DNA of 64,000 nt from an uncultured bacterium (lineage in GTDB: Bacteria; Patescibacteriota; Minisyncoccia; Phycocordibacterales; UBA6065), in contig CAWJEP010000001.1 in the NCBI GenBank assembly GCA_963841935.1, positions 10,487 through 74,486 of the forward strand, written 5' to 3'. The notes beneath the pieces are model-generated. The model had not been told where the DNA came from and did no database searches. It saw nothing but the letters and a program-made list of their open reading frames with translations. The position numbers were made by a program, and so were the translations under genes. Within the stretch, counting starts at the first letter, position 1. Every line of letters begins with the position of its first letter. Positions 24,260-37,850 of the stretch are shown piece after piece.

Positions 24260-26320
24260 TTATTTATTCTCCAAAGCTTGAACCTCGGCTTTTAGCGAGT
24301 CTATTTCCGTTTGCTGTTCCTTTACCGCTTCTATTAGAGGCGCGACGAGATTTTGATATTCCACGGATTCAAGTCCGGTTTTGGGGTCTGTCTCCACCAA
24401 GTCCGGGAAAACTTTCTGCACGTTTTGAGCGATTAGACCTACCGACGGCTCGCCGTTGGCTATCCAATTGAACGTCACGCCGTTTAATTGTTCGATTTTT
24501 GAAATGGCGTCCGTAATCGGCTCTATGTTTTCCTTCAACCTTTCGTCCGAACCTTGAGACCATGTGCCCCAATACGTACCGTTGCCATAGAGACGGAATA
24601 TTCCCCCGCCGTTCGCTCCCGTATGCGCGCCGATGTCTACTTCGTTGTCTACTTGAAGAAGTCCGGAACAATTGCCGCAACCGCTCGTCGAGCCTTGAAT
24701 CCAAGTATATCCGTCAAGATACGTGGTAACGCCCGGCGTTACCAAAAACTGCAAGCTCGTAACGGCGAACTCTCCATCCGATTCCCCGCCGCCGCGTAGC
24801 CACGTGTAACCGGGCAAGTATAGCGAAGTCGAATTGTTCGGAGAATAAATAGTCCAGTTGCCTTGATTATTCAAAAGTCCGAACTCGCTCCCGTCCGCGT
24901 ATATGTAACCGCCACTTCCTCCGCCGTAAAGAACGTGAATGTTTCCGTTGACGGATAGAGATTGGTCCGGAGAAGCCGTGCCTATGCCGACAAAGCCGGG
25001 AAAATAAGTGTAGCCGCTCGTGCCGCCGTCGATTTCCAAATAACCGGCGGCGTCGCTATGAATACCGCCACGGGCTTGGAGTTGCGACTGAAAATATACC
25101 GTCCCACTATTGAAATACGCGCCACCGGGAACTATTATGTAGGACGAGGCCGAGATGTATGGGTTAGACGGATAGAAAGACATGTTGCCGTAAAACTCCG
25201 TCCCCGTTTGGTTGGCCGAAACATTGAGAGCCCAATTACCCTGATTGTTTAGAAGTCCGAAATTGCTTCCGTCGCTGTAAATATATCCCAAAACGCCGGA
25301 ATTATTGACCAAATCGATATTGCCGGCGACGGAAAGTTTTTGACCTGGACTCGCCGTGCCGATGCCTACGTTGTTGTAGACTTCCAATTCGAGAGGATAC
25401 GAGGTTATGCCTGTTTTGACTGCCTCGATGTGTCCGACGGAGCCGTCAAAAGATACTCCGACTCCCCCGGAAGTGCCGTCCCCGGGGTCGTAGGAGCCGC
25501 CGGCAAAAAGTCCCCTACCGGCCACGTCGAGTTGTGTGGAACTGCCCGGCACCACGTCCACGCCAACGCTGCCTCCGCTGTAATATATATTCGAACCGGA
25601 AGTCGTCCACTGACTACTCACGACGGAAGGCCAAGAGCTTATACAATTTCCCGCGAGACAAATCTCCGAACTCGCCCATAAATTTGCCAAGGCAAGTCCT
25701 TGTCCGCCGTAGACACTGCCGTTCGCGTCGCTTTCATAAAGCCATCCGTTAGAATAAAAATTGAGACATTGTGTGCCGCTCCCGCCGCAAATAACGCCAA
25801 GATTACCGTATCCGCCGGCGGTGGAATGAATAGCGTAATTTGAACTAAGGGCGCCAACGGTAACGGAGTTCGGCATTGACACGTTGTCCGTGCCATAAGG
25901 CACTTCCACCGCCCAGTTCGTGTTGCTACCAAGCAGTCCGAAACCGCCGGTGTCGCCGTACAAGACGCCCGAGCGCGTGGAACTATTAACAAAAGCATCT
26001 ATTCCGACACTTCCGCTGGAAGAATTTATTCTCTCAACATTGTTCCAATACGAACCCGTGACATCAAGCTTGTAAGACGGACTCGTGTTGCCTATACCAA
26101 CGTTTCCGTATTGGACGATGAGACCGTCTGCCGCGTTACCCGTGTTTAAAAGAAGACCTCCAGTCTTTGCTTGAGCCGTGCCGGAAATATTGAGAGGTGT
26201 GGAAGCGTTATTGCTCGGCGGAGTACCGGTCGGCCCAACCCATTGAGCGGATGCTATGACTGGAAATAAAAGAAAGAGGGAGATGCTAGCGAGGAGTATG
26301 AAGCGCTTTTGTGTGTTCAT
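24260..26320 (-). CDS. secreted tail-fibre-like repeat protein with C-terminal intramolecular-chaperone/autoprotease (peptidase S74-like) domain
   Basis: It has a signal peptide and repeated NVGIGT(A/S)SP..L.V.GNI motifs. The C-terminus reads SDERLKENIEPITDAISKIEQLNGVTFNW...GLIAQNVQKVFPDLV...LIEAVKEQQTEIDSLKAEVQALENK, typical of self-cleaving endosialidase/tail-spike chaperone domains. Confidence 0.7.
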   Translation of the reverse strand: MNTQKRFILLASISLFLLFPVIASAQWVGPTGTPPSNNASTPLNISGTAQAKTGGLLLNTGNAADGLIVQYGNVGIGNTSPSYKLDVTGSYWNNVERINSSSGSVGIDAFVNSSTRSGVLYGDTGGFGLLGSNTNWAVEVPYGTDNVSMPNSVTVGALSSNYAIHSTAGGYGNLGVICGGSGTQCLNFYSNGWLYESDANGSVYGGQGLALANLWASSEICLAGNCISSWPSVVSSQWTTSGSNIYYSGGSVGVDVVPGSSTQLDVAGRGLFAGGSYDPGDGTSGGVGVSFDGSVGHIEAVKTGITSYPLELEVYNNVGIGTASPGQKLSVAGNIDLVNNSGVLGYIYSDGSNFGLLNNQGNWALNVSANQTGTEFYGNMSFYPSNPYISASSYIIVPGGAYFNSGTVYFQSQLQARGGIHSDAAGYLEIDGGTSGYTYFPGFVGIGTASPDQSLSVNGNIHVLYGGGSGGYIYADGSEFGLLNNQGNWTIYSPNNSTSLYLPGYTWLRGGGESDGEFAVTSLQFLVTPGVTTYLDGYTWIQGSTSGCGNCSGLLQVDNEVDIGAHTGANGGGIFRLYGNGTYWGTWSQGSDERLKENIEPITDAISKIEQLNGVTFNWIANGEPSVGLIAQNVQKVFPDLVETDPKTGLESVEYQNLVAPLIEAVKEQQTEIDSLKAEVQALENK

Positions 26321-26341: not shown

Positions 26342-26602
26342 CTATTTCGCCTGAAGTGAGTCGAGAATGTTCTGTTCGCTTGAACTTGAGGTCGTCTTTT
26401 GCGGCGCAGACGTGGCGTTCAGACTGTAGAGAGCGCGTTTCTGCGCCGGCGTAACTCCCTTGAAAAAATTCGGTTGCGCCGACAGATTCTCTAGGGTTGT
26501 CTTTGTGATTTGCGATTGGTTTGAAATAAGAAAGTAGCTGACAACAAAATAAATGATACCGGCAAGAGCGAGAACAATGATTGCTACAAGTATTTTTTTC
26601 AT
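26342..26602 (-). CDS. small single-TM protein (hypothetical)
   Basis: MKKILVAIIVLALAGIIYFVVSYF is the TM helix, followed by an ST-rich tail. Confidence 0.4.
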   Translation of the reverse strand: MKKILVAIIVLALAGIIYFVVSYFLISNQSQITKTTLENLSAQPNFFKGVTPAQKRALYSLNATSAPQKTTSSSSEQNILDSLQAK

Positions 26603-27801
26603 TATATTTCTTGAAATTGTGGATTAAACGTCGTTGGCGTGATGATTAGATTTTTTACCGAAGAACTGACGCCCGATGACGTGCCTTGGAGAGTGATGTT
26701 GCAGGGATTCGGACTCCCGGAGCAATATGAAGCGGTCAATGGTTCATTGATTTCCAATTGGAAAGTGAAGCTGCCGTTTGGACCGATGATTACCGGGCTT
26801 GGGTTCGCGGTGTAAGCGCCGCCGTTTACCGAGTAGAGCGCCGTGGTCGAAGCATTGGGCATCGTCGGATAACCGGAAATGGAAACCGTGACGTTGCCGC
26901 TAAATCCGCCGACGGGATTTACCGTTATGGTTTTTGTCTGCGACTGTGACCAGCCGGCGGGCAAGAAGCTTATTTTTATCGTGTCGTCTGGACCAAGAGA
27001 GAAACCCGGCGGCTGCGAGCCGACGGCGAACGAGACGTTTGACGATGCCACGGTGTTGCCGCCGGACGTGCAGGTTATATTGAAAGCGTAAGAACCGGTG
27101 GTAAGTCCTTGGGTTGCCGTCGAGCCGGACGAAGTGATGCCCGTCACGGTGGTAAACTGCGTGGCGCCCGAAGAAGTTTTCGAAAGCGTGCACGTGGCTC
27201 CGGAAAGATTTACCAGAGTGTAGACAAGATTCACGACCGTACCGTAAGGCACATTATTGTTGTTGGCGACCGATGTCCCGAGTGGAGATTGGGCGTCGAG
27301 GCCGACGCTCGAAGAAAGTTGCACGCCGTTCGTCCCGGCCGCGTTGAAACTTACCCAGCCGAGAAGGCCGCTGTCCCAAGCGTAGCCGTCGAAAAAAGAA
27401 CCCGAAAGCGTGACGCCGTAATTCGTGCCGGAAAGAGAAATCCAGCCGTCCCAACCGTTTCCGTCGGCGGAAACGGCCTTCGCCCAGCCGATGAGATTTG
27501 TGCCGCTCATCTGGGCGTTCTCCGCCGACGTTCCCGAGCCGCTGGGGAATCCGGAGAGACCGCCAAATTGTATCCAGCCCACGGAATCGGACCACGCGTA
27601 GCCCGTGAGTGTGCCGTCGTTGTTGTCCGTCACACCATAGTCCACGGCGCCGCAGGTGCTCGTGTTCGTGCAATTGAAACTAATCCACCCGGCATCATCG
27701 GACCACGCCCAACCAGCCATATTGTTTTCCGTTCCTGCGTGGGCAAACGCCGGTAGGATAAAAATAGAAACCGAAATTAAAAATAGTGCGAACCTCTTCA
27801 T
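26602..27801 (-). CDS. secreted protein with G(W/Y)AWSD..GWISF repeats and a C-terminal domain shared with the TSP1 protein
   Basis: It has a signal peptide and four or more GWAWSDDAGWISF-like repeats. The last 130 aa or so align with the C-terminus of 29728-31532 and end ...TPTTFNPQFQEI*. Confidence 0.6.
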   Translation of the reverse strand: MKRFALFLISVSIFILPAFAHAGTENNMAGWAWSDDAGWISFNCTNTSTCGAVDYGVTDNNDGTLTGYAWSDSVGWIQFGGLSGFPSGSGTSAENAQMSGTNLIGWAKAVSADGNGWDGWISLSGTNYGVTLSGSFFDGYAWDSGLLGWVSFNAAGTNGVQLSSSVGLDAQSPLGTSVANNNNVPYGTVVNLVYTLVNLSGATCTLSKTSSGATQFTTVTGITSSGSTATQGLTTGSYAFNITCTSGGNTVASSNVSFAVGSQPPGFSLGPDDTIKISFLPAGWSQSQTKTITVNPVGGFSGNVTVSISGYPTMPNASTTALYSVNGGAYTANPSPVIIGPNGSFTFQLEINEPLTASYCSGSPNPCNITLQGTSSGVSSSVKNLIITPTTFNPQFQEI

Positions 27802-27822
27802 CCTTCTAATAATATCATTATT

Positions 27823-28323
27823 TCAAAGTTTCCTGTCTCGAATGCCTAGTTTGTATCCGACAAAGCAAAAAATGGGGTGAATGGCGAGTATCAAAAGGAC
27901 GCTCAATAAATAAGCGGAAAGCGTTATGTATCCCATGAAAAAAACTATGGCGCCGGTAAAAATTATGTAATTACCGTGGTCTACTACCGGCACATAACCG
28001 CCGTCGGGAACATGAAATCTTCTTTTTATGAAACTGCCGAGAATGTGGCCGAAAAAACAGCCGAAACCTATTATGATACCGACCGGGGAATAAAAAATCT
28101 GAATTAAAATTCCGACAAGAAGAGAAACTACCAGCCCCCACCATGTGGCGGATTTTCCGATAAGTCTCTCGCCCCAAAGACGGAGCCCTCCGTCGAACGG
28201 CGGATCAAAATTTTCCAAATGATAAAGTTTTTTGAAGGCTCCGAGAAAATTGTGGGACATATTCACCAGTCCGCAGAGAATGGCGAACCGTAAAGCTTCC
28301 ATGAATATAAAATAATTCATCAT
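27823..28323 (-). CDS. CTP-transferase-1 superfamily membrane protein, closest to CDP-archaeol synthase (CarS/DUF46) or short CdsA/dolichol-kinase-like enzymes
   Basis: The 166-aa product has GKSATWWG (compare G.GKTWEG/WRG), GHILGSFIKRR (compare GDL.ESFLKRR) and VVDHGNYIIFTG (compare LLDQLDFVIGA of CarS). About five TM helices. Confidence 0.5.
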   Translation of the reverse strand: MMNYFIFMEALRFAILCGLVNMSHNFLGAFKKLYHLENFDPPFDGGLRLWGERLIGKSATWWGLVVSLLVGILIQIFYSPVGIIIGFGCFFGHILGSFIKRRFHVPDGGYVPVVDHGNYIIFTGAIVFFMGYITLSAYLLSVLLILAIHPIFCFVGYKLGIRDRKL

Positions 28324-29721
28324 TTAATATGTGACCACGAAATTATTCACCGGAAAGGCTTCCACGGTATGAATTCCTCCGGCCAAAATCAGGAGTTCGC
28401 TCTCGACATCGACGATTCTCGGTATGCATATAAAATAATCAAAGGTCACGGCGTAATAATTCCATCCGTTTTTCTGTCCGAATAAATGGATGTCGGAAAT
28501 GTTCGCGAGACTGTGTGTCGCGGCCGGCTTCACGAGTGGCTCCTTGGAAACGACAAAAAGAGTGCTCGTGGCATTCACGCGCCAATTGTCACACACAACA
28601 TTGTCAAAAGATATCGGGAAACGATTTGTCGGGTCGCCGGTTTCTTTCGCTATATTTCCTATGGTCACGGGACTTGTCGTGGCGATGTCATAGAAATACA
28701 AATCCCCGATTTTTTCCAAAAATCTCCCCGGCGCGGACGCGTCATAAGTTCCAAGATAAACATTTTGATAAGCTATGGACGTCGTGTCGTAAGAAATGTC
28801 TCCTTCCGTTGAAACAAATACCGGGACTAAAAAACAAATACCCAAAAGCAAAACGGCGGTGGCGCCGAAGACGCGAAAGCGCGAGGCGCCTCTTTCCGCG
28901 AGAAAAAACCATCCGAAATACACGAGTTCCATGCCAAAAACATGTTCAAGATACACCGATACTTGAGTGTGACTTATGGCGCCGAAGGGATAGGCGATAA
29001 TAACGGCGATGGGCGTGACTAGAGAAAGAGCAACGGGGAAAATCCAGCCGCGGAAACTTTTAGGTGCGTAGCCGTAGCACATAACGAGCAGGATGAGAAA
29101 AGCCGGAATAGCTTCGGAGTTCAAAAGTCCTCCGTCGAAAATATTTTTCAAAAAAGAAAGCAGAGCGATGGCGAAAAGTATCTGGAGGCCGAATCTTTTT
29201 TTATTTTTCCCGACAAAATCGAACAGGAGCCATATTCCAAGGATAGACACGGTAAGACATCCGGCAAGTCCGACCCAGCCGACCCATGTCGGCAAAATAT
29301 TGAGGTACGCGAAACCAAAATCGGCTTTTGTCTCGAGCGCGAGCCGAAGCTGGGTCGGAAAAAAAGATGAAACCAGACCGAAAGGAAATTTCAAAACATG
29401 AGTGTGAAAGAAATGCGTCGTAGAAATATCCCTTTCCCCTATCGCTGACAGAACATAGTTCGCCGGAACGGCGAGCATTTTATAAAAGTAGAAAGTTACG
29501 CCAAGACCGAGAAGGAAAATCGCCGTCGAAACGATGAAAAATATATTTTTCAGGGGAAATTTCCGCGCGACAGGCGTTTCGACGGCGATTTTTTTTCGCC
29601 ACGCGATGATATTTACGACAGCCAAAAGCAGAATGGCGAAAAGAAAGAGAAAAACTTTCACGTCACTGCGACCCGCGGCGAAAAGGTCGGTAATAATGTG
29701 CAGAAAGAAGAAATAATTCAT
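28324..29721 (-). CDS. large polytopic membrane protein with a C-terminal extracytoplasmic domain (hypothetical; GT-C glycosyltransferase-like or sorting-enzyme-like)
   Basis: The 465-aa product has 10 or more TM helices followed by a soluble tail of about 150 aa. It is tightly coupled to the flanking genes. Confidence 0.55.
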   Translation of the reverse strand: MNYFFFLHIITDLFAAGRSDVKVFLFLFAILLLAVVNIIAWRKKIAVETPVARKFPLKNIFFIVSTAIFLLGLGVTFYFYKMLAVPANYVLSAIGERDISTTHFFHTHVLKFPFGLVSSFFPTQLRLALETKADFGFAYLNILPTWVGWVGLAGCLTVSILGIWLLFDFVGKNKKRFGLQILFAIALLSFLKNIFDGGLLNSEAIPAFLILLVMCYGYAPKSFRGWIFPVALSLVTPIAVIIAYPFGAISHTQVSVYLEHVFGMELVYFGWFFLAERGASRFRVFGATAVLLLGICFLVPVFVSTEGDISYDTTSIAYQNVYLGTYDASAPGRFLEKIGDLYFYDIATTSPVTIGNIAKETGDPTNRFPISFDNVVCDNWRVNATSTLFVVSKEPLVKPAATHSLANISDIHLFGQKNGWNYYAVTFDYFICIPRIVDVESELLILAGGIHTVEAFPVNNFVVTY

Positions 29722-29727
29722 CGAAAC

Positions 29728-31532
29728 TTATATCTCCTTAAAATTCGGATTGAAACTGTTTGGACTTACGGTGAGGTTAAATGTCGTGGATGTGTCGCCG
29801 CCGGAAGCGTCAAACGTCACATAGCAGGAATTGGTAAAGCCCGAAGGGAATTGTATTTGGATATTGAGACCGACATTTCCGGACGGCGCTCGATAATTAC
29901 CGGAACCGTCGTCGCTCATTACCGTGGAAGGACTTTGAGTGAATGCTCCGCCGTCAAAAGAGTAGCCGGAGGGATTCGGCTGGCAGGTGGTTGATTGAAC
30001 GGTCACAGTTACGGGAGAACTGAATCCTCCCGTAGGATTGACTTCCAGCGTGCTTACGTTCGTCGTGCCGCCTTCGTTGGCTACGAACTGTATGCTTGCC
30101 GAAGACGGGCCGGAAAGAGTAAAACCCGACGTGGGATTGTTGCCGTTACTACCGCCATTGTTACCGCCGTTGGTACCGCCGTTGGTACCGCCGTTGGTAC
30201 CCGTTCCAGTCTGACCCGATGGATAAGTGCACGGAGCGGTTCCCTCATAGTTGGTTGCGTTTGGATCTGTGCAAAGCTCCGAATATGTGCACGGTAGAGC
30301 GCCTCCGTAATTATTTGCGTTCGGGTCGACGCAAAGTTGCGCCGACGGATATGTGCACGGCGCGTAGCCGTCATAATTCGACGCGCTCGGGTCCGTGCAT
30401 TCCGCCGGACAAGAAGCCGTCGTGGAAATAACCGACCCGTCCCAACACGTCTGGGTTGTGGGATTTGTCGTGCACGACTGAGTGTTGCAATCCTGACTTT
30501 CCGAACTGCTTCCGGAACAAGTCGCGCCGCCGTTTGCCGGAGTGGGATTCGTGCAAGTTCTGGTCTGTGTTTGATTTCCGCCGCCACAAGTAGCAGAACA
30601 AGTTCCCCATCCAGACCAAGCCGACCAGCCACCGTTTACGGGACATACTTGGGTGTTGCAAGTTTGAGAACTGCTTCCGGAACAAGTCGCGCCGCCGTTT
30701 GCCGGAGTGGGATTCGTGCAAGTTCTGGTCTCCGTACCACCGCCGCAAGTTTCTGAACACGTTCCCCAACTTGACCAGCCGCCGTCGACTTTCGTGGGCG
30801 GAGTAACGCACGCTGGTTCAGTACATGTTTGAGTTTGCGTGCCTGTGCCGCTAGTATCTCCGGAGCAATCAGCACCGCCGTTTGCCGGAGCGGGATTCGT
30901 ACACGTTTTGGTCTGTGTACCGGTACCGCAAGTTACACTGCACGTTCCCCAAGCCGACCATTCGCCATTTACAGGACACGCTTGGGTATTGCAAATTTGA
31001 GATTCGGAACTGTCTCCGGAACAATCGGCTCCGCCGTTTGCCGGAGCAGGATTCGTGCAAGTTCGCGTCGCGGTTTGCGTGCCGCCACCGCAAGTGGCTG
31101 AACATGTTCCCCAACTTGACCAGTCGGACCAGCCGCCGTCCACCTTTTGTGGTGTCGGATTTGTTGAGGGACAATCGCTAAGAGCGCTTTGAGAGAACTC
31201 ATTCGTCACGCCGTCGGGACACGTCCAGTAACAAGGTTCTGTTCCGCGGTAGTTTGTTGCGGTGTGATCTAAACACGCGTTACCGCAAAATAGTCCGCAC
31301 TCGCCATTTGGATACGATGTTGTGGGGTCATTGGGACAAGTGCAGTCCGGGAGACTTCCGCCGCCTCCATAACCGCCACCGCCAAAAGGACCGCAGTTAA
31401 TGGCTGAGTTACTGCATGCGCCGCCATAATACCGCCAGATTCGCTCCCCACTTGGGCAAAAGCTAAATGAGAAGATAAAGAAAAAATCAGAGAGAAAATA
31501 AATATTCTTGATAAATATAATCTGGTATTCAT
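29728..31532 (-). CDS. secreted Cys-rich protein with four thrombospondin type-1 repeats; signal peptide in a different frame (frameshift near 31441-31457)
   Basis: There are four copies of W(S/T)[18 protein letters not shown]..RTCTNP.PANGGA.CSG....Q.CNTQ.CP (WSxW and CSVTCG motifs). Three C(T/V)DP.A.NY....PCTY repeats follow. Then comes a TNGG linker and a C-terminal domain ending [10 protein letters not shown]. The signal peptide [26 protein letters not shown] starts at ATG 31532-31530 in another frame, and the main frame is open upstream to about 31520. Confidence 0.7.
30370..31160. repeat. intragenic tandem repeats of about 165 bp (TSP1 modules)
   Basis: Two copies are near-identical: aactgcttccggaacaagtcgcgccgccgtttgccggagtgggattcgtgcaagttctggtct at 30504-30565 and again at 30669-30731. 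Two more diverged copies lie upstream. Confidence 0.7.
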
Positions 31533-31542
31533 ATTTTTATTT

Positions 31543-32949
31543 TTATATGTTTCCACTCATGGTCGGTGGTTGAGGCAAGGGCTTTTTCTTTTTTAACACA
31601 ACCACAATAGCCAAAATAACAAGAACGCCTGCGATTGCATAATATATGTACATCGTGGTGTTGGATGTCCATTGAGTCTTCGGTGACGGACACCTGTTCG
31701 CGTCACATATGTACAGAACGGATGAGGACGCGAGGATTGTCCCGTACTGGTCGGTAGTCTTTATGCTGAGAGTTAATGGTTCAAAAATATTTGTCGTGGG
31801 AGAAAAATGAATCTGGAAAGGATAGGATGAGGCGTTTCTTTCGGAGAAACCTCCGGACCAGACGCTCTTGCCAAGAGAATCAACAAGAGAAAGGTCAACC
31901 GTCGTCGTGGCCGCGGTGTTGGAGTAATTTTGGGTGAGGCATCCTGCCACGCTGTTTGAAACTCCAGCGGAAATTGGAAAATTGGAGAGGTAAAGCGAGC
32001 GGGCGCCCGGCTCCACGATGTCACTTCGACCTATGCGAAGAGAGAACATTGATTCTTTGTCGCCATCCTTTAGTTCTCCGACCAAAAGATATTTTGCGTG
32101 GACAAAATTGTTGTACGTGAAAGAAACGACACTATTTTTGTTCGGCGAAAGTTGAACGGAATCGGTTTCCGTGGCAACAAGCGCTGTGGGATTTATAAAA
32201 TTGCCGCTATATAGATACCAACCGACCGTGACATTATGAGAAGCGGTGTATGTATTCTCTACGCCAACTGAAGTAACCGCCGTCGGCACGGTAATTGTCG
32301 AAAGCATCTGCGTCATCGGCACAACGCCGTTCACTTTCATCGTCGGCAAATCAAAAAATGATGTTTGTTCTTCCGTTCCGGTAACGGCCAACGGATATGT
32401 GGCTAGCGGAATATTGAGATATTCGTTTCCTCCAATGGCAAATTGGTCGGAACCATTTAAAAACAAGTCAACTTGATATGGTCCGGTAACTAAATCTCGT
32501 GGCACGGGGTAATTGAAAGAAAATGACGCTGTTGCTTTGGGGTTTAGGTATATTCCCGTCAAAGGAATAATCCGGTCCACCGTGTCTGTCGCCATATCAT
32601 AGGAAGAACCGGATTTTTTTTGAAGTTTTACTACGCGAGCGACAAGAGTTAAGTCGGAAACCGGATAACTGTTGAGATTATCGATAGTGCCGGCAATAAT
32701 CACATTGCTACCGGCAGAGACTTTGGTATTACCCACAAGAAAACTCGCTCTAACGAGAGAGTTAGCCAAAAGACATGTCGAAGGGAAAATCAGTTGCGTC
32801 GGCGTGGTGGACGAAAACGAAATACCGGCTCCCAACTGAGAAACGTCGGCCGCCGAGACAAATTGAAAAGAAAGGAACGGTAGGAGAAAAAAAACAAAAG
32901 AAAATATAAGACGCCTAGAACTCATGCCGAAAAGTATACCAACTGACAT
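31543..32949 (-). CDS. type-I membrane surface protein (signal peptide, beta-rich ectodomain, C-terminal TM anchor plus KKKK stop-transfer)
   Basis: The 468-aa product ends with ...YYAIAGVLVILAIVVVLKKKKPLPQPP. It overlaps the downstream gene by 14 nt. Confidence 0.55.
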   Translation of the reverse strand: MSVGILFGMSSRRLIFSFVFFLLPFLSFQFVSAADVSQLGAGISFSSTTPTQLIFPSTCLLANSLVRASFLVGNTKVSAGSNVIIAGTIDNLNSYPVSDLTLVARVVKLQKKSGSSYDMATDTVDRIIPLTGIYLNPKATASFSFNYPVPRDLVTGPYQVDLFLNGSDQFAIGGNEYLNIPLATYPLAVTGTEEQTSFFDLPTMKVNGVVPMTQMLSTITVPTAVTSVGVENTYTASHNVTVGWYLYSGNFINPTALVATETDSVQLSPNKNSVVSFTYNNFVHAKYLLVGELKDGDKESMFSLRIGRSDIVEPGARSLYLSNFPISAGVSNSVAGCLTQNYSNTAATTTVDLSLVDSLGKSVWSGGFSERNASSYPFQIHFSPTTNIFEPLTLSIKTTDQYGTILASSSVLYICDANRCPSPKTQWTSNTTMYIYYAIAGVLVILAIVVVLKKKKPLPQPPTMSGNI

Positions 32950-35865: not shown

Positions 35866-37850
35866 ATGAATTCATACATTATTTTCGCCCTCGGAAGCGC
35901 GGTGCTCGCGATTGTTTACGGACTCGTATTGATAAAAAATATTTTGGCGAAGCCCGCTGGCAACGACAAGATGAAAGAAATCGCCCTCGCCATTCAGCAA
36001 GGCGCCAAAGCGTATCTCGCGAGGCAATACAAAACTATCGCTGGAATCGCCGTCGTTCTCTTTATCGTTTTGTGGCTCGCGCTCGGACTTACGCTCGCTT
36101 TAGGATTCCTTACCGGCGCGATACTTTCCGCTCTTGCCGGATTTATCGGTATGAATGTTTCCGTTCGCGCCAATTCTCGAACGGCTGAAGCCGCGAGAGG
36201 CGGTATTGACGCCGCGCTCAAACTGGCTTTTAACGGCGGCGCGGTCACGGGACTTCTCGTCGTCGGTCTCGCCCTTCTCGGCGTCACTTCTTTCTACGCG
36301 ATTACCGGCGGCGTTGATTCGCTCATCGGGCTCGCCTTCGGAGCGTCGCTTATTTCCGTTTTCGCCCGCCTTGGCGGAGGTATTTTTACAAAAGCAGCCG
36401 ACGTTGGCACCGACCTCGTCGGTAAAGTCGAAGCTGGAATCCCCGAGGATGACCCGAGAAACCCCGGAGTCATCGCCGACAACGTCGGAGACAACGTCGG
36501 AGACTGCGCCGGCATGGCCGCCGACCTTTTTGAAACTTACGCCGTCACGACTATCGCCTCGATGATGCTCGCGTCAGTGATATTTCCGGGAAATCAAAAC
36601 GCCGTCATATATCCTCTCGTCCTCGGCGGTGTGGCGATAATCGCTTCCATCATCGGCACTTGGTTCGTACATATGGGCAAATCAAAAAATATTATGGGTG
36701 CGATGTACAAAGGCCTCGCCGTTGCCGGAGTTCTCGCCGGAATCGCTTTCTACTTCGTGACGAAAGTTTTGATGGCGGCAAACGGACAATTTTCCACTGG
36801 CAATCTTTTTGGTTGCGCCGTCATCGGACTTCTCGTTACCGCGGCACTTGTCGTCATCACCGAATATTACACTTCAACCAAATACGCTCCGGTTAAATCC
36901 ATCGCCAAAGCGTCGGTCTCCGGTCACGGCACGAATATTATTCAAGGTTTGGCCATGTCGATGAAATCAACCGCTTGGCCGCTCATTAGCATCGTCGTCG
37001 GAATTCTCTTCGCTTATCACTTCGGAGGCCTTTACGGCATCGCTATCGCCGCGATGAGTATGCTTTCGATGGCCGGAATCATTATCGCCATTGACGCTTA
37101 CGACCCATCACCGACAACGCCGGTGGCATCGCAGAAATGGCCGACCTTCCGCAAGAAGTCCGCGATGTTACCGACCCGCTTGACGCCGTCGGCAACACGA
37201 CCAAAGCCGTTACCAAAGGTTATGCCATCGGCTCCGCCGGACTCGCGGCTCTCGTTCTCTTCGCTTCTTACACTCAAGCTACTCACGGACTTCATTTCGA
37301 GCTCGGTGACCCGCGTGTCATCGTTGGACTCTTTCTCGGAGGACTTCTTCCTTATTACTTCGCGGCGCTTTCGATGGAAGCCGTCGGCAAAGCAGCGGGA
37401 CAAGTCGTCGAAGAAGTGCGAAGGCAATTCCGTGAAATCAAAGGCATTATGCAAGGCACGGCCAAGCCAGATTACGCTCGTTGCGTCGACATCGTGACTT
37501 CGGCGGCAATCAAAGAAATGATTCTGCCGGCACTCATTCCTGTTCTCGCTCCGATTGTCGTCGGTTTCGTCCTCGGACCGGTTGCTCTCGGCGGACTTCT
37601 CGTCGGCTCGATTGTCACCGGACTTTTCGTTGCCATCTCGATGACTTCCGGCGGCGGCGCTTGGGACAACGCGAAAAAACTTATTGAACAAGGCGAGCAC
37701 GGCGGTAAAGGCAGCGACGCTCACAAAGCGGCAGTCACCGGCGACACCGTCGGCGATCCTTACAAAGACACCGCCGGTCCCGCCATCAATCCGATGATTA
37801 AAATCCTGAACATTGTGGCGCTTCTTATCGTCAGCTTCTTAATCAAATAG
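35866..37850 (+). CDS. hppA: membrane-bound proton-translocating pyrophosphatase (H+-PPase); apparent -1 frameshift near 37101-37104
   Basis: The motifs are [38 protein letters not shown] and then [21 protein letters not shown] in the downstream frame. Frame 1 reads ...[12 protein letters not shown], whereas the expected [22 protein letters not shown] is restored by inserting one G at tacg|accc. Confidence 0.9.

What the first reader, a model, noticed from the sequence alone, without database searches (positions are those of the whole stretch)
26602..30130. Shared roughly 130-aa C-terminal domain ending F-N-P-x-F-[KQ]-E-I* on two secreted proteins flanking two membrane enzymes
The C-termini of the GW-repeat protein and the TSP1 protein align over about 130 aa: GFSLGPDD / [24 protein letters not shown] / [24 protein letters not shown] / [25 protein letters not shown] / [17 protein letters not shown] conserved C-terminal domain with an invariant extreme C-terminus next to polytopic membrane proteins is the hallmark of dedicated sorting or anchoring systems such as LPXTG, PEP-CTERM, PGF-CTERM and T9SS CTD. 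This tag matches none of the known ones, since it has no TM helix and no basic tail.
Basis: seen in the sequence. Interest (0 to 1): 0.7.

Follow-up and report, generated by a model that had tools for sequence, protein, structure and literature searches.

The report
New C-terminal tag on CPR adhesins
Two secreted proteins of an uncultivated Parcubacteria-type bacterium share a C-terminal domain ending in the same eight-residue tail; this undescribed tag sits on many related adhesin-like proteins and probably docks them onto a cell-surface structure, perhaps type IV pili, rather than serving the neighbouring membrane proteins.

Summary
The last ~135 aa of the GW-repeat protein and the TSP1 protein are homologous (Smith-Waterman 197 vs 44.5±8.2 for shuffles). 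They define an Ig-like beta-sandwich domain with no Pfam, NCBIfam or PDB match. In 101 non-redundant copies it is always the extreme C-terminus and ends [FVLI]-x-P-x-[FY]-x-E-x-stop, with Glu at -2 invariant.

The universal element is the tail, not the sandwich. Of 41 GW-domain proteins with unrelated C-terminal domains, 38 also end E-x-COOH, against 5.8% of other ORFs. Synonymous Glu codons show the selection acts on the protein.

The proposed link to the two membrane proteins fails. The 465-aa protein has only six homologue clusters, and the 465-aa/CarS-like pair is a lineage-specific insertion into a conserved gene pair.

The conserved neighbours are:
- a small single-pass membrane protein (26/30 loci);
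- a fibre protein with an S74 chaperone domain;
- in 19/30 related loci, pilB-pilC-pilin genes just downstream.

Best reading, inferred and not shown: a non-covalent C-terminal docking tag for Sec-exported adhesins, most plausibly working like the PilC/PilY1 C-terminal strand on type IV pilus tips. No transmembrane helix, cleavage enzyme or covalent sorting is evident.

The parts
26602..27801 (-). GW-repeat secreted protein (399 aa). It has a Sec signal peptide, about four G[WY]AWS..GWI.F repeats, a middle Ig-like domain, the CTD and the tail.
   Evidence: ORF. AF2 model of the full protein has pLDDT 85. 530 confirmed relatives in metagenome contigs. No Pfam or PDB match for the GW part.
26605..27015 (-). 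C-terminal Ig-like beta-sandwich domain (CTD) of the GW protein
26605..26628 (-). Terminal tag FNPQFQEI-COOH of the GW protein, followed by TAA
   Evidence: Glu -2 is invariant in 101/101 copies, Pro -6 in 94/101, and an aromatic at -4 in 100/101.
29728..31532 (-). TSP1-repeat secreted protein. The signal peptide ([13 protein letters not shown]...AFA) is in another frame, so a 1-nt frameshift lies at about 31430-31455. The protein has 4 TSP_1 repeats, the CTD and the tail.
   Evidence: Orthologues P0002 and P0008 are intact and carry a signal peptide.
29731..30135 (-). CTD of the TSP1 protein
   Evidence: Profile match covers positions 2-136, E=3.5e-44. Pairwise alignment with the GW protein's CTD.
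29731..29754 (-). Terminal tag [12 protein letters not shown] of the TSP1 protein, followed by TAA
28324..29721 (-). 465-aa polytopic membrane protein. It belongs to a narrowly distributed family and is not a conserved partner of the tag.
   Evidence: No Pfam or NCBIfam hit. Only 6 homologue clusters. Present only in the closest relatives.
27823..28323 (-). 166-aa CarS-like (CDP-archaeol synthase family) membrane protein. It travels with the 465-aa gene.
   Evidence: PF01864 E=7e-15; NF003114 E=6e-18 but below its cut-off. Distribution.
26342..26602 (-). 86-aa protein with an N-terminal single-pass membrane anchor. Its start overlaps the GW stop (TAATG). The ectodomain has three short repeats of the form ..(I/L)LxxLxA.
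   Evidence: A gene of this kind follows the GW-CTD gene within 0-43 nt in 26/30 non-redundant loci.
24260..26320 (-). 686-aa secreted fibre-like protein with a C-terminal Peptidase_S74 intramolecular chaperone domain
   Evidence: PF13884 E=3.9e-18. Most conserved neighbour: 22/31 loci, and 12/14 CTD-type loci within 3 kb.

Best explanation
The two window proteins are Sec-exported, adhesin-like surface proteins of a Parcubacteria-type (CPR) bacterium.

Shown: they share an undescribed ~135-aa Ig-like C-terminal domain. Beyond its last beta-strand this domain carries an eight-residue tail, [FVLI]-x-P-x-[FY]-x-E-x-COOH. The tail is the conserved, portable element. It always sits at the true C-terminus, its Glu at -2 is invariant, and it also ends GW-domain proteins whose C-terminal domains are unrelated.

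Inferred: the tail is a docking tag with a free carboxyl end. A partner recognises it in trans and holds otherwise unanchored secreted proteins on a cell-surface assembly, without cleavage. The alternating pattern (hydrophobic -8, Pro -6, aromatic -4, Glu -2) fits an amphipathic strand that adds to a partner's beta-sheet.

The most plausible partner is the tip or initiation complex of type IV pili, by analogy with the extreme C-terminal strand of PilC/PilY1 that complements minor pilin PilK. The variable passenger domains (GW repeats, TSP1, PKD, LCCL and others) would then be interchangeable adhesive heads.

The second candidate partner is the small single-pass membrane protein encoded immediately after the GW gene, possibly together with the S74 fibre.

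The adjacent 465-aa and CarS-like membrane proteins are a lineage-specific insertion and play no general part.
For: Homology and fold:
- Pairwise alignment and shuffle control.
- AF2 pLDDT 93.
- Only generic Ig-like structural neighbours.
- No Pfam, NCBIfam or PDB family.

Position and conservation:
- Exclusively C-terminal in ~65 database proteins and 52 DNA loci.
- In 101 non-redundant CTDs the tail columns carry 3.4-4.3 bits, against a domain mean of 1.8 bits. Glu -2 is the only invariant column. No conserved basic residue exists in the domain to pair with it.

Tail independent of the sandwich:
- 38/41 GW proteins without any CTD similarity end E-x-COOH, and 25/41 end P-x-hydrophobic-x-E-x.
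- Among other ORFs the figures are 48/829 and 3/829.

Protein-level selection:
- Glu -2 is coded GAA 49 / GAG 34, matching background usage.
- GGAG occurs in the last 15 nt of only 13/83 tails.

Tail not part of the fold core:
- It is not in a DSSP strand in either model.
- pLDDT is ~80 in the CTD-only model, and below 50 for the last 3 residues in the full-length model.

Secretion:
- Signal peptides are present on nearly all complete members, with no TM helix or LPXTG at the C-terminus.

Genomic linkage:
- pilB (T2SSE+MshEN), pilC (T2SSF) and N_methyl pilins lie on the same strand within 6 kb downstream of the GW gene in 19/30 loci with enough flank. In several loci pilB starts 42-75 nt after the GW stop.
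- The same clusters encode a 580-640-aa pilin-like protein lacking Glu+5 in at least 12 loci. This is the hallmark of tip pilins of the PilK/GspK type, as stated in bioRxiv 10.64898/2026.02.14.705861.
- The small TM protein follows the GW gene in 26/30 loci.

Precedent:
- The last ~10 residues of PilC/PilY1 strand-complement PilK, are essential, and are partly sufficient for function.
Against:
- In the window itself there is no pilB, pilC or pilin within 26 kb downstream or 36 kb upstream of the GW gene. The pilus link therefore rests on relatives and could partly reflect inherited synteny.
- Loci carry two or three tagged proteins, whereas a PilK-type tip offers one strand slot.
- These proteins have Ig-like C-terminal domains, not the PilY1 beta-propeller, and no PilY1/PilC Pfam hit.
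- The CTD-only AF2 model gives the tail pLDDT ~80, which is compatible with it packing onto its own domain.
- In the Cys-rich subtype the last residue is D, G or N rather than hydrophobic, so the rules of recognition are not uniform.
Confidence: 0.45

Rival explanations
1. This is a covalent sorting signal. A dedicated membrane enzyme recognises the tail and cleaves it, for example between Glu and the last residue in the way a D-Ala-D-Ala transpeptidase or a sortase works. The enzyme then links the protein to the cell wall or a lipid. The adjacent 465-aa and CarS-like proteins would be that machinery.
For: - The Glu is invariant at a fixed distance from the C-terminus across unrelated preceding domains.
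- The proteins have no other anchor.
- Polytopic membrane proteins lie between the two tagged genes in the window.
Against: - The 465-aa/CarS-like pair is confined to the window's closest relatives and absent from all other tagged loci.
- The 465-aa family has 6 clusters, against at least 65 CTD clusters and more than 530 GW loci.
- No sortase-, exosortase-, rhombosortase- or peptidase-like gene recurs in the neighbourhoods.
- Known covalent sorting signals carry a TM helix and a basic tail, which are absent here.
- An enzyme encoded elsewhere in the genome cannot be excluded.
Confidence: 0.13
2. The tail anchors the proteins to the small single-pass membrane protein encoded right after the GW gene. 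Its 2-3 (I/L)LxxLxA repeats would each bind one tail or CTD. Together with the S74 fibre this forms a membrane-anchored surface fibre complex that is independent of pili.
For: - This is the tightest gene linkage in CTD-type loci: 26/30 loci, with spacing of 0-43 nt and an overlapping stop/start in the window.
- The S74 fibre lies within 3 kb in 12/14 CTD-type loci.
- The small protein's topology (N-terminal anchor, repeats outside) suits a tether.
Against: - In GW loci with other C-terminal domains but the same tail, the small TM gene is often missing and pilB follows directly (small TM next in 8 of 35).
- The repeat number does not track the number of tagged genes.
- No interaction test was possible.
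Confidence: 0.2
3. The tail is only a structural cap of the preceding domain. It folds back, and Glu -2 and the terminal carboxylate stabilise the sandwich or bind a metal. The family is simply a stalk or adhesin domain with no partner.
For: - The CTD-only AF2 model gives the tail pLDDT ~80.
- Ig-like domains are common in adhesin stalks.
Against: - The same tail follows at least two unrelated C-terminal domain types.
- The domain never occurs internally or in tandem, unlike stalk Ig domains.
- The tail is the best-conserved part, yet it is not in a strand and is low-confidence in the full-length model.
- There is no conserved counter-charge for the Glu in the domain.
Confidence: 0.12
4. The apparent conservation is a nucleotide-level or annotation artefact. 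Either the last codons encode the ribosome-binding site of the downstream gene (AAGGAG = K-E), or the stop codon is not a real terminus.
For: - In the TSP1 gene the tail ...AAGGAGATATAA contains a perfect Shine-Dalgarno sequence 10 nt before the next ATG.
- Position -3 is enriched in Q, K, R and E.
Against: - Glu -2 uses GAA 49 / GAG 34, the same as background.
- GGAG lies in the last 15 nt in only 13/83 tails.
- All three stop codons are used.
- Downstream spacing varies from 0 to more than 100 nt.
- Pro -6 and the aromatic at -4 are also conserved.
Confidence: 0.01

Closest known systems
[quoted passage not shown]
   Same: - It is a Sec-exported non-pilin protein.
- It has a variable adhesive N-terminal part.
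- A functionally essential peptide of ~10 residues sits at the very C-terminus, with no TM helix and no cleavage.
- Its genes lie next to pilus assembly and minor pilin genes. Here pilB, pilC and pilins lie downstream of the GW gene in 19/30 related loci, and a Glu5-less large pilin-like gene is in the same clusters.
   Different: - There is no PilY1 beta-propeller and no PilC/PilY1 sequence similarity.
- The preceding domain here is an Ig-like sandwich, a short Ig domain or a Cys-rich module.
- There are two or three tagged proteins per locus.
- The host is a monoderm-type CPR bacterium.
- The window itself has no pilus genes nearby.
- Strand insertion was not tested.
Type IX secretion C-terminal domain (T9SS CTD, Por_Secre_tail)
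   Same: It is a C-terminal Ig-like beta-sandwich of ~80-130 aa, without a TM helix, shared by many secreted proteins that carry unrelated passenger domains.
   Different: - There is no sequence match to T9SS CTD models.
- The organism is not a Bacteroidota diderm.
- No T9SS genes were seen.
- The conserved element here is an 8-residue tail that also works with other domains.
- There is no evidence of CTD removal.
LPXTG, PEP-CTERM, PGF-CTERM, GlyGly-CTERM and MYXO-CTERM sorting signals
   Same: Each is a short conserved motif near the C-terminus of many secreted proteins with diverse passengers.
   Different: Those signals are tripartite (motif, TM helix, basic tail), are cut by a dedicated membrane enzyme, and often number dozens per genome. 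Here the stop codon follows E-x directly, no enzyme is linked, and only 2-3 tagged genes are seen per locus.
Braun lipoprotein (Lpp) C-terminal Lys attachment to peptidoglycan by L,D-transpeptidases
   Same: It is a precedent for an invariant residue at the extreme C-terminus, without a TM segment, that mediates attachment to the envelope.
   Different: In Lpp the terminal Lys side chain is the nucleophile. Here the invariant residue is a penultimate Glu, and no covalent link has been shown or suggested by gene context.
Dockerin-cohesin and SLH-type non-covalent surface anchoring modules
   Same: Each is a C-terminal module appended to varied secreted enzymes or adhesins, which docks them non-covalently onto a scaffold or the wall.
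   Different: The fold and sequence are unrelated, and those modules do not depend on a free, invariant C-terminal peptide.

Membership tests
LPXTG / sortase substrates | LPXTG-like motif followed by a hydrophobic TM segment and a basic tail | tested here: not met
   Both proteins stop (TAA) one residue after Glu, and no TM helix or basic tail follows. There is no Gram_pos_anchor hit on either protein.
LPXTG / sortase substrates | Sortase gene in the genome or neighbourhood | tested here: inconclusive
   No recurrent sortase-like family was found among conserved neighbours in 31 loci. Whole genomes were not available.
PEP-CTERM / PGF-CTERM / GlyGly-CTERM and related exosortase-type signals | Signature motif plus TM helix plus Arg/Lys cluster at the C-terminus, matched by NCBIfam/TIGRFAM models | tested here: not met
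   No NCBIfam or Pfam sorting-signal model matched the two proteins or the 48 CTDs. No TM helix is present.
T9SS C-terminal domain | Sequence match to Por_Secre_tail / T9SS CTD models | tested here: not met
   No such hit at E<=0.1 or E<=0.01 for all 48 members.
T9SS C-terminal domain | C-terminal beta-sandwich without a TM helix on diverse cargo | tested here: met
   The AF2 model is an all-beta sandwich with pLDDT 93. The passenger domains are diverse.
T9SS C-terminal domain | Diderm Bacteroidota-type host with T9SS machinery | tested here: not met
   Related loci come from Candidatus Taylorbacteria in the Parcubacteria group. No T9SS genes appear in the neighbourhoods.
PilC/PilY1-type pilus tip adhesins | Sec signal peptide and non-pilin N-terminus | tested here: met
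   The GW protein starts MKRFALFLISVSIFILPAFAHA|G, and family members have the same kind of N-terminus.
PilC/PilY1-type pilus tip adhesins | Conserved C-terminal beta-propeller (Neisseria_PilC/PilY1 domain) | tested here: not met
   There is no Pfam hit. The models show Ig-like sandwiches only.
PilC/PilY1-type pilus tip adhesins | Gene clustered with type IV pilus or minor pilin genes | tested here: inconclusive
   The feature is met in 19/30 related loci. It is not met in the window, which has no pilB, pilC or pilin in 64 kb.
PilC/PilY1-type pilus tip adhesins | Extreme C-terminal ~10 residues insert as a beta-strand into the PilK-type minor pilin | not testable with these tools
   Only single-chain AF2 was available. 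The tail has an alternating strand-like pattern and is unstructured in the monomer models.
CDP-archaeol synthase (CarS) family, for the 166-aa neighbour | Match to PF01864 above the gathering score | tested here: met
   55.9 bits against a cut-off of 22. The NCBIfam equivalog NF003114 scores 65 bits against a cut-off of 148, so the specific function is not established.

The most novel reading that the evidence does not exclude
P-x-hydrophobic-x-E-x-COOH is a portable loading tag. Through it, Parcubacteria attach interchangeable Sec-secreted adhesive heads (GW, TSP1, PKD, LCCL, Hint and others) in trans to the tip complex of their type IV pili, by strand addition to a Glu5-less minor pilin. This would be a modular, PilY1-independent solution to pilus-tip display in episymbiotic CPR bacteria. 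A more radical variant is a new covalent attachment chemistry that uses the Glu-x bond as a one-residue leaving group.
Probability: 0.3. Interest if true: 0.85.

Novelty: new variant of a known kind. Interest (0 to 1): 0.68.

Why it matters
CPR/Patescibacteria are thought to live attached to host cells, with type IV pili and surface adhesins implicated in that attachment (background knowledge, not checked here). How secreted proteins stay on their surface is largely unknown.

A short, invariant, TM-less C-terminal tag would give three things:
- a simple sequence rule to list the surface or pilus-associated proteome of these uncultivated organisms;
- a candidate mechanism for swapping adhesive specificities;
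- a new family for domain databases, since neither the CTD nor the GW module has a Pfam, NCBIfam or PDB entry.

It would also extend the recently described principle of C-terminal strand addition at pilus tips to a very distant lineage with a different protein architecture.

Tried and rejected
- **BLASTP.** Default BLASTP of the two proteins found nothing. The alignment is real but is masked by composition adjustment, so Smith-Waterman with shuffles was used instead.
- **Word-indexed protein searches.** These were nearly blind to the family, giving 1 and 2 hits. The exhaustive profile search was needed.
- **Genome collection scan, full alignment.** The scan with the full CTD alignment failed for lack of a conserved stretch.
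- **Genome collection scan, subfamily alignment.** This gave only two loci.
- **Structure jobs.** The afdb50 fold library was unavailable.
- **Membrane-enzyme partner.** Rejected on distribution.
- **Ribosome-binding-site explanation for K/Q/R/E-E.** Rejected by codon counts.
- **Alternative genetic code or read-through.** Rejected. All three stop codons occur, downstream genes are in varying frames at varying distances, and the upstream tagged gene is followed by a gene with its own signal peptide.
- **Prophage or phage tail-fibre module** (suggested by the S74 domain). Rejected. The flanks are housekeeping and pilus genes, and there are no relatives in 2.9 million viral contigs.
- **Weak family hits.** The hits to choice-of-anchor T (E=0.0018-0.047, 13-18 bits vs a cut-off of 70) and to invert_tail (1 of 48 members, E=4.5e-4) were not considered meaningful.
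- **Literature.** Searches found no description of the tag.


Full report
**What is in the window**

All relevant genes are on the minus strand. In transcription order they are:
- a 468-aa protein with a C-terminal TM helix and KKKK (31543-32949);
- the TSP1-repeat protein (29728-31209 as an ORF);
- a 465-aa polytopic membrane protein (28324-29721);
- a 166-aa CarS-like protein (27823-28323; PF01864, E=7e-15);
- the GW-repeat protein (26602-27801);
- an 86-aa protein with one N-terminal TM helix (26342-26602), whose ATG overlaps the GW stop;
- a 686-aa protein with a C-terminal Peptidase_S74 chaperone domain (24260-26320).

The listed GTG start of the TSP1 protein is an artefact. A typical signal peptide ([13 protein letters not shown]...AFA) lies upstream in another frame, so there is a 1-nt frameshift near 31430-31455. 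The H+-pyrophosphatase gene of the window is also frameshifted at ~37104, so assembly indels are the likely cause.

**Checking the observation**

BLASTP with composition adjustment reports nothing. A Smith-Waterman alignment of the last 140 residues scores 197, against 44.5±8.2 (max 77) for 1000 shuffles. Identity is 36%. Both proteins end FNPxF[QK]EI followed by TAA.

**The family**

A profile of the domain was searched without a word index against 1.84 billion representative proteins. It found 91 proteins at E<=1e-3.
- About 26 are multi-stretch partial matches to repetitive Ig-like proteins.
- In all ~65 single-stretch matches the domain ends at the last or second-to-last residue of the protein.
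- Of these, 61 end [FY]-x-E-x. The four exceptions are cut or frameshifted.

The N-terminal parts differ: GW repeats, TSP1, Gly_rich_2, PKD, LCCL, Big_7 and Hint/Vint. Almost all complete members start with a signal peptide.

**The tail**

In 101 non-redundant CTDs, Glu at -2 is the only invariant column. Pro at -6 occurs in 94/101 and an aromatic at -4 in 100/101. These columns carry 3.4-4.3 bits, against a domain mean of 1.8 bits, and no conserved basic residue is available to pair with the Glu. The tail lies after the last strand in both AF2 models. Its pLDDT is ~80 in the CTD-only model, and the last three residues are below 50 in the full-length model.

A metagenome scan with the GW module returned 80 loci, out of 530 confirmed matches. 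In all loci held, 52 of 52 CTD copies are followed by a stop codon right after E-x.

GW proteins without any detectable CTD carry other C-terminal modules. One is a Cys-rich module ending ...KKPIFIED; another is a short Ig-like module ending ...LxPxFEEF. These proteins still end E-x-COOH in 38 of 41 cases and P-x-hydrophobic-x-E-x in 25 of 41. Among other ORFs of at least 150 aa the figures are 48/829 and 3/829, and those three look like further tagged secreted proteins. The tail is therefore a portable tag, not just the end of one fold.

Glu -2 is encoded GAA 49 / GAG 34, the same ratio as elsewhere in these genes. GGAG occurs in the last 15 nt of only 13 of 83 tails. The conservation is therefore on the protein, not on a ribosome-binding site.

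**The proposed membrane partner**

The 465-aa protein has six homologue clusters among 5.8 billion proteins. The 465-aa/CarS-like pair sits between the two tagged genes only in the window (and L006, the same genome) and in L009, L011, L012 and L005. In L005 the homologue is cut by an IS element. In L010, whose GW protein is 67% identical, and in L001, L007, L008, L014, L017, L022, L023, L027, L028, L038 and L056, a tagged protein with a variable N-terminus directly precedes the GW-CTD gene. No homologue of either membrane protein occurs in the ±10 kb held.

**What is conserved around the tagged genes**

- **Small membrane protein.** A small protein (58-124 aa) with an N-terminal membrane anchor follows the GW-CTD gene within 0-43 nt in 26 of 30 non-redundant loci. 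Its ectodomain has 2-3 repeats of (E/Q)xx(I/L)LxxLxA, the last at its own C-terminus.
- **S74 fibre.** An S74-type fibre protein is the most conserved neighbour, in 22/31 loci, and in 12/14 CTD-type loci within 3 kb.
- **Pilus genes.** pilB (T2SSE+MshEN), pilC (T2SSF) and N_methyl pilins lie on the same strand within 6 kb downstream in 19 of 30 loci with at least 4 kb of flank. In the Cys-rich subtype, pilB starts 42-75 nt after the GW stop.
- **Large pilin-like protein.** The same clusters hold a 580-640-aa pilin-like protein without Glu+5 in at least 12 loci.

The window itself has no pilus genes. Two related loci come from species-representative genomes. One of these is Candidatus Taylorbacteria, in the Parcubacteria group. 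No relatives occur in viral contigs.

**Mechanism**

Shown:
- the proteins are Sec-type exported, with no TM helix, lipobox or LPXTG;
- they share a tag that must be at the free C-terminus;
- the tag is independent of the preceding fold;
- the tagged genes are genomically tied to surface-structure genes.

Inferred: the tag is a non-covalent docking peptide. Its alternating pattern (hydrophobic -8, Pro -6, aromatic -4, Glu -2) suits an added beta-strand.

The closest working precedent is PilC/PilY1. Its last ~10 residues are predicted to strand-complement minor pilin PilK, are essential for piliation, and are partly sufficient when fused to PilK. PilK-type pilins lack Glu+5 (bioRxiv 10.64898/2026.02.14.705861). 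I therefore rank pilus-tip docking first. Tethering by the small TM protein, possibly with the S74 fibre, comes second. Covalent sorting by an unlinked enzyme comes third, and a purely structural cap fourth.

None of the partner assignments is tested. Membership in the PilY1 family is not claimed, because its defining beta-propeller is absent.

**Novelty and verdict**

The CTD, the GW module and the tag are undescribed in the libraries and papers searched. The concept of a C-terminal tag on varied secreted proteins is known, so I class this as a new variant of a known kind.

Noticed in passing
window 31425-31556 (minus strand): The TSP1 gene's signal peptide (ATG at 31532) is in a different frame from the rest of the gene. 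A 1-nt frameshift lies near a GGGG run at about 31430-31455. The orthologues P0002 and P0008 are intact.
   Followed up: partly
window 35866-37850 (plus strand): The H+-translocating pyrophosphatase gene is split by a frameshift at ~37104-37107. tblastn with the L005 orthologue matches frame 1 and then frame 3, at 95-99% identity. This suggests indel errors in the assembly rather than pseudogenes.
   Followed up: yes
window 26342-26602 (minus strand); also L001, L007-L015, L019-L030, L038, L052, L056, L073, L087: A small single-pass membrane protein immediately follows the GW gene in 26/30 loci. Its ectodomain carries 2-3 short repeats, (E/Q)xx(I/L)LxxLxA, and the last repeat forms its own C-terminus (for example ...EQNILDSLQAK). 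No family match was found and its function is unknown.
   Followed up: partly
window 24260-26320 (minus strand); L011:11390-13876, L071, L083 and others: The S74-chaperone fibre proteins share a conserved N-terminus right after the signal peptide: W-(V/T/S)-G-P-T-x-x-P-P-x-x-N...P-(I/L)-N...Q-x-K-x-G-x-L. This may be an attachment motif. They are chromosomal, not phage-borne.
   Followed up: no
window 27823-29721; L005:11389-14001: A CarS-like (CDP-archaeol synthase family) gene is paired with an orphan 465-aa polytopic membrane protein. The pair is confined to one narrow CPR lineage. In L005 the 465-aa homologue is truncated by an rve-type transposase insertion.
   Followed up: partly
L027:17834-19756, L023:18996-20867, L007:18551-20299, L036:8049-9842 and at least 8 more loci: Large (580-640 aa) pilin-like proteins have an N-terminus of the form ...GGYAVITALLFFLA or ...SGAAMLISVVFFLF and no Glu at +5. 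They lie in the pilus clusters downstream of GW genes, have no Pfam match, and are candidate tip (PilK/GspK-like) pilins.
   Followed up: partly
[not shown]
   Followed up: partly
window 31543-32949 (minus strand): A 468-aa secreted protein has a C-terminal TM helix and a KKKK stop-transfer, and a weak sub-threshold LPXTG-anchor hit (E=0.08). It is conserved upstream of the tagged genes in L011, L005, L056 and L022. It is a second, different way of anchoring surface proteins within the same locus.
   Followed up: no
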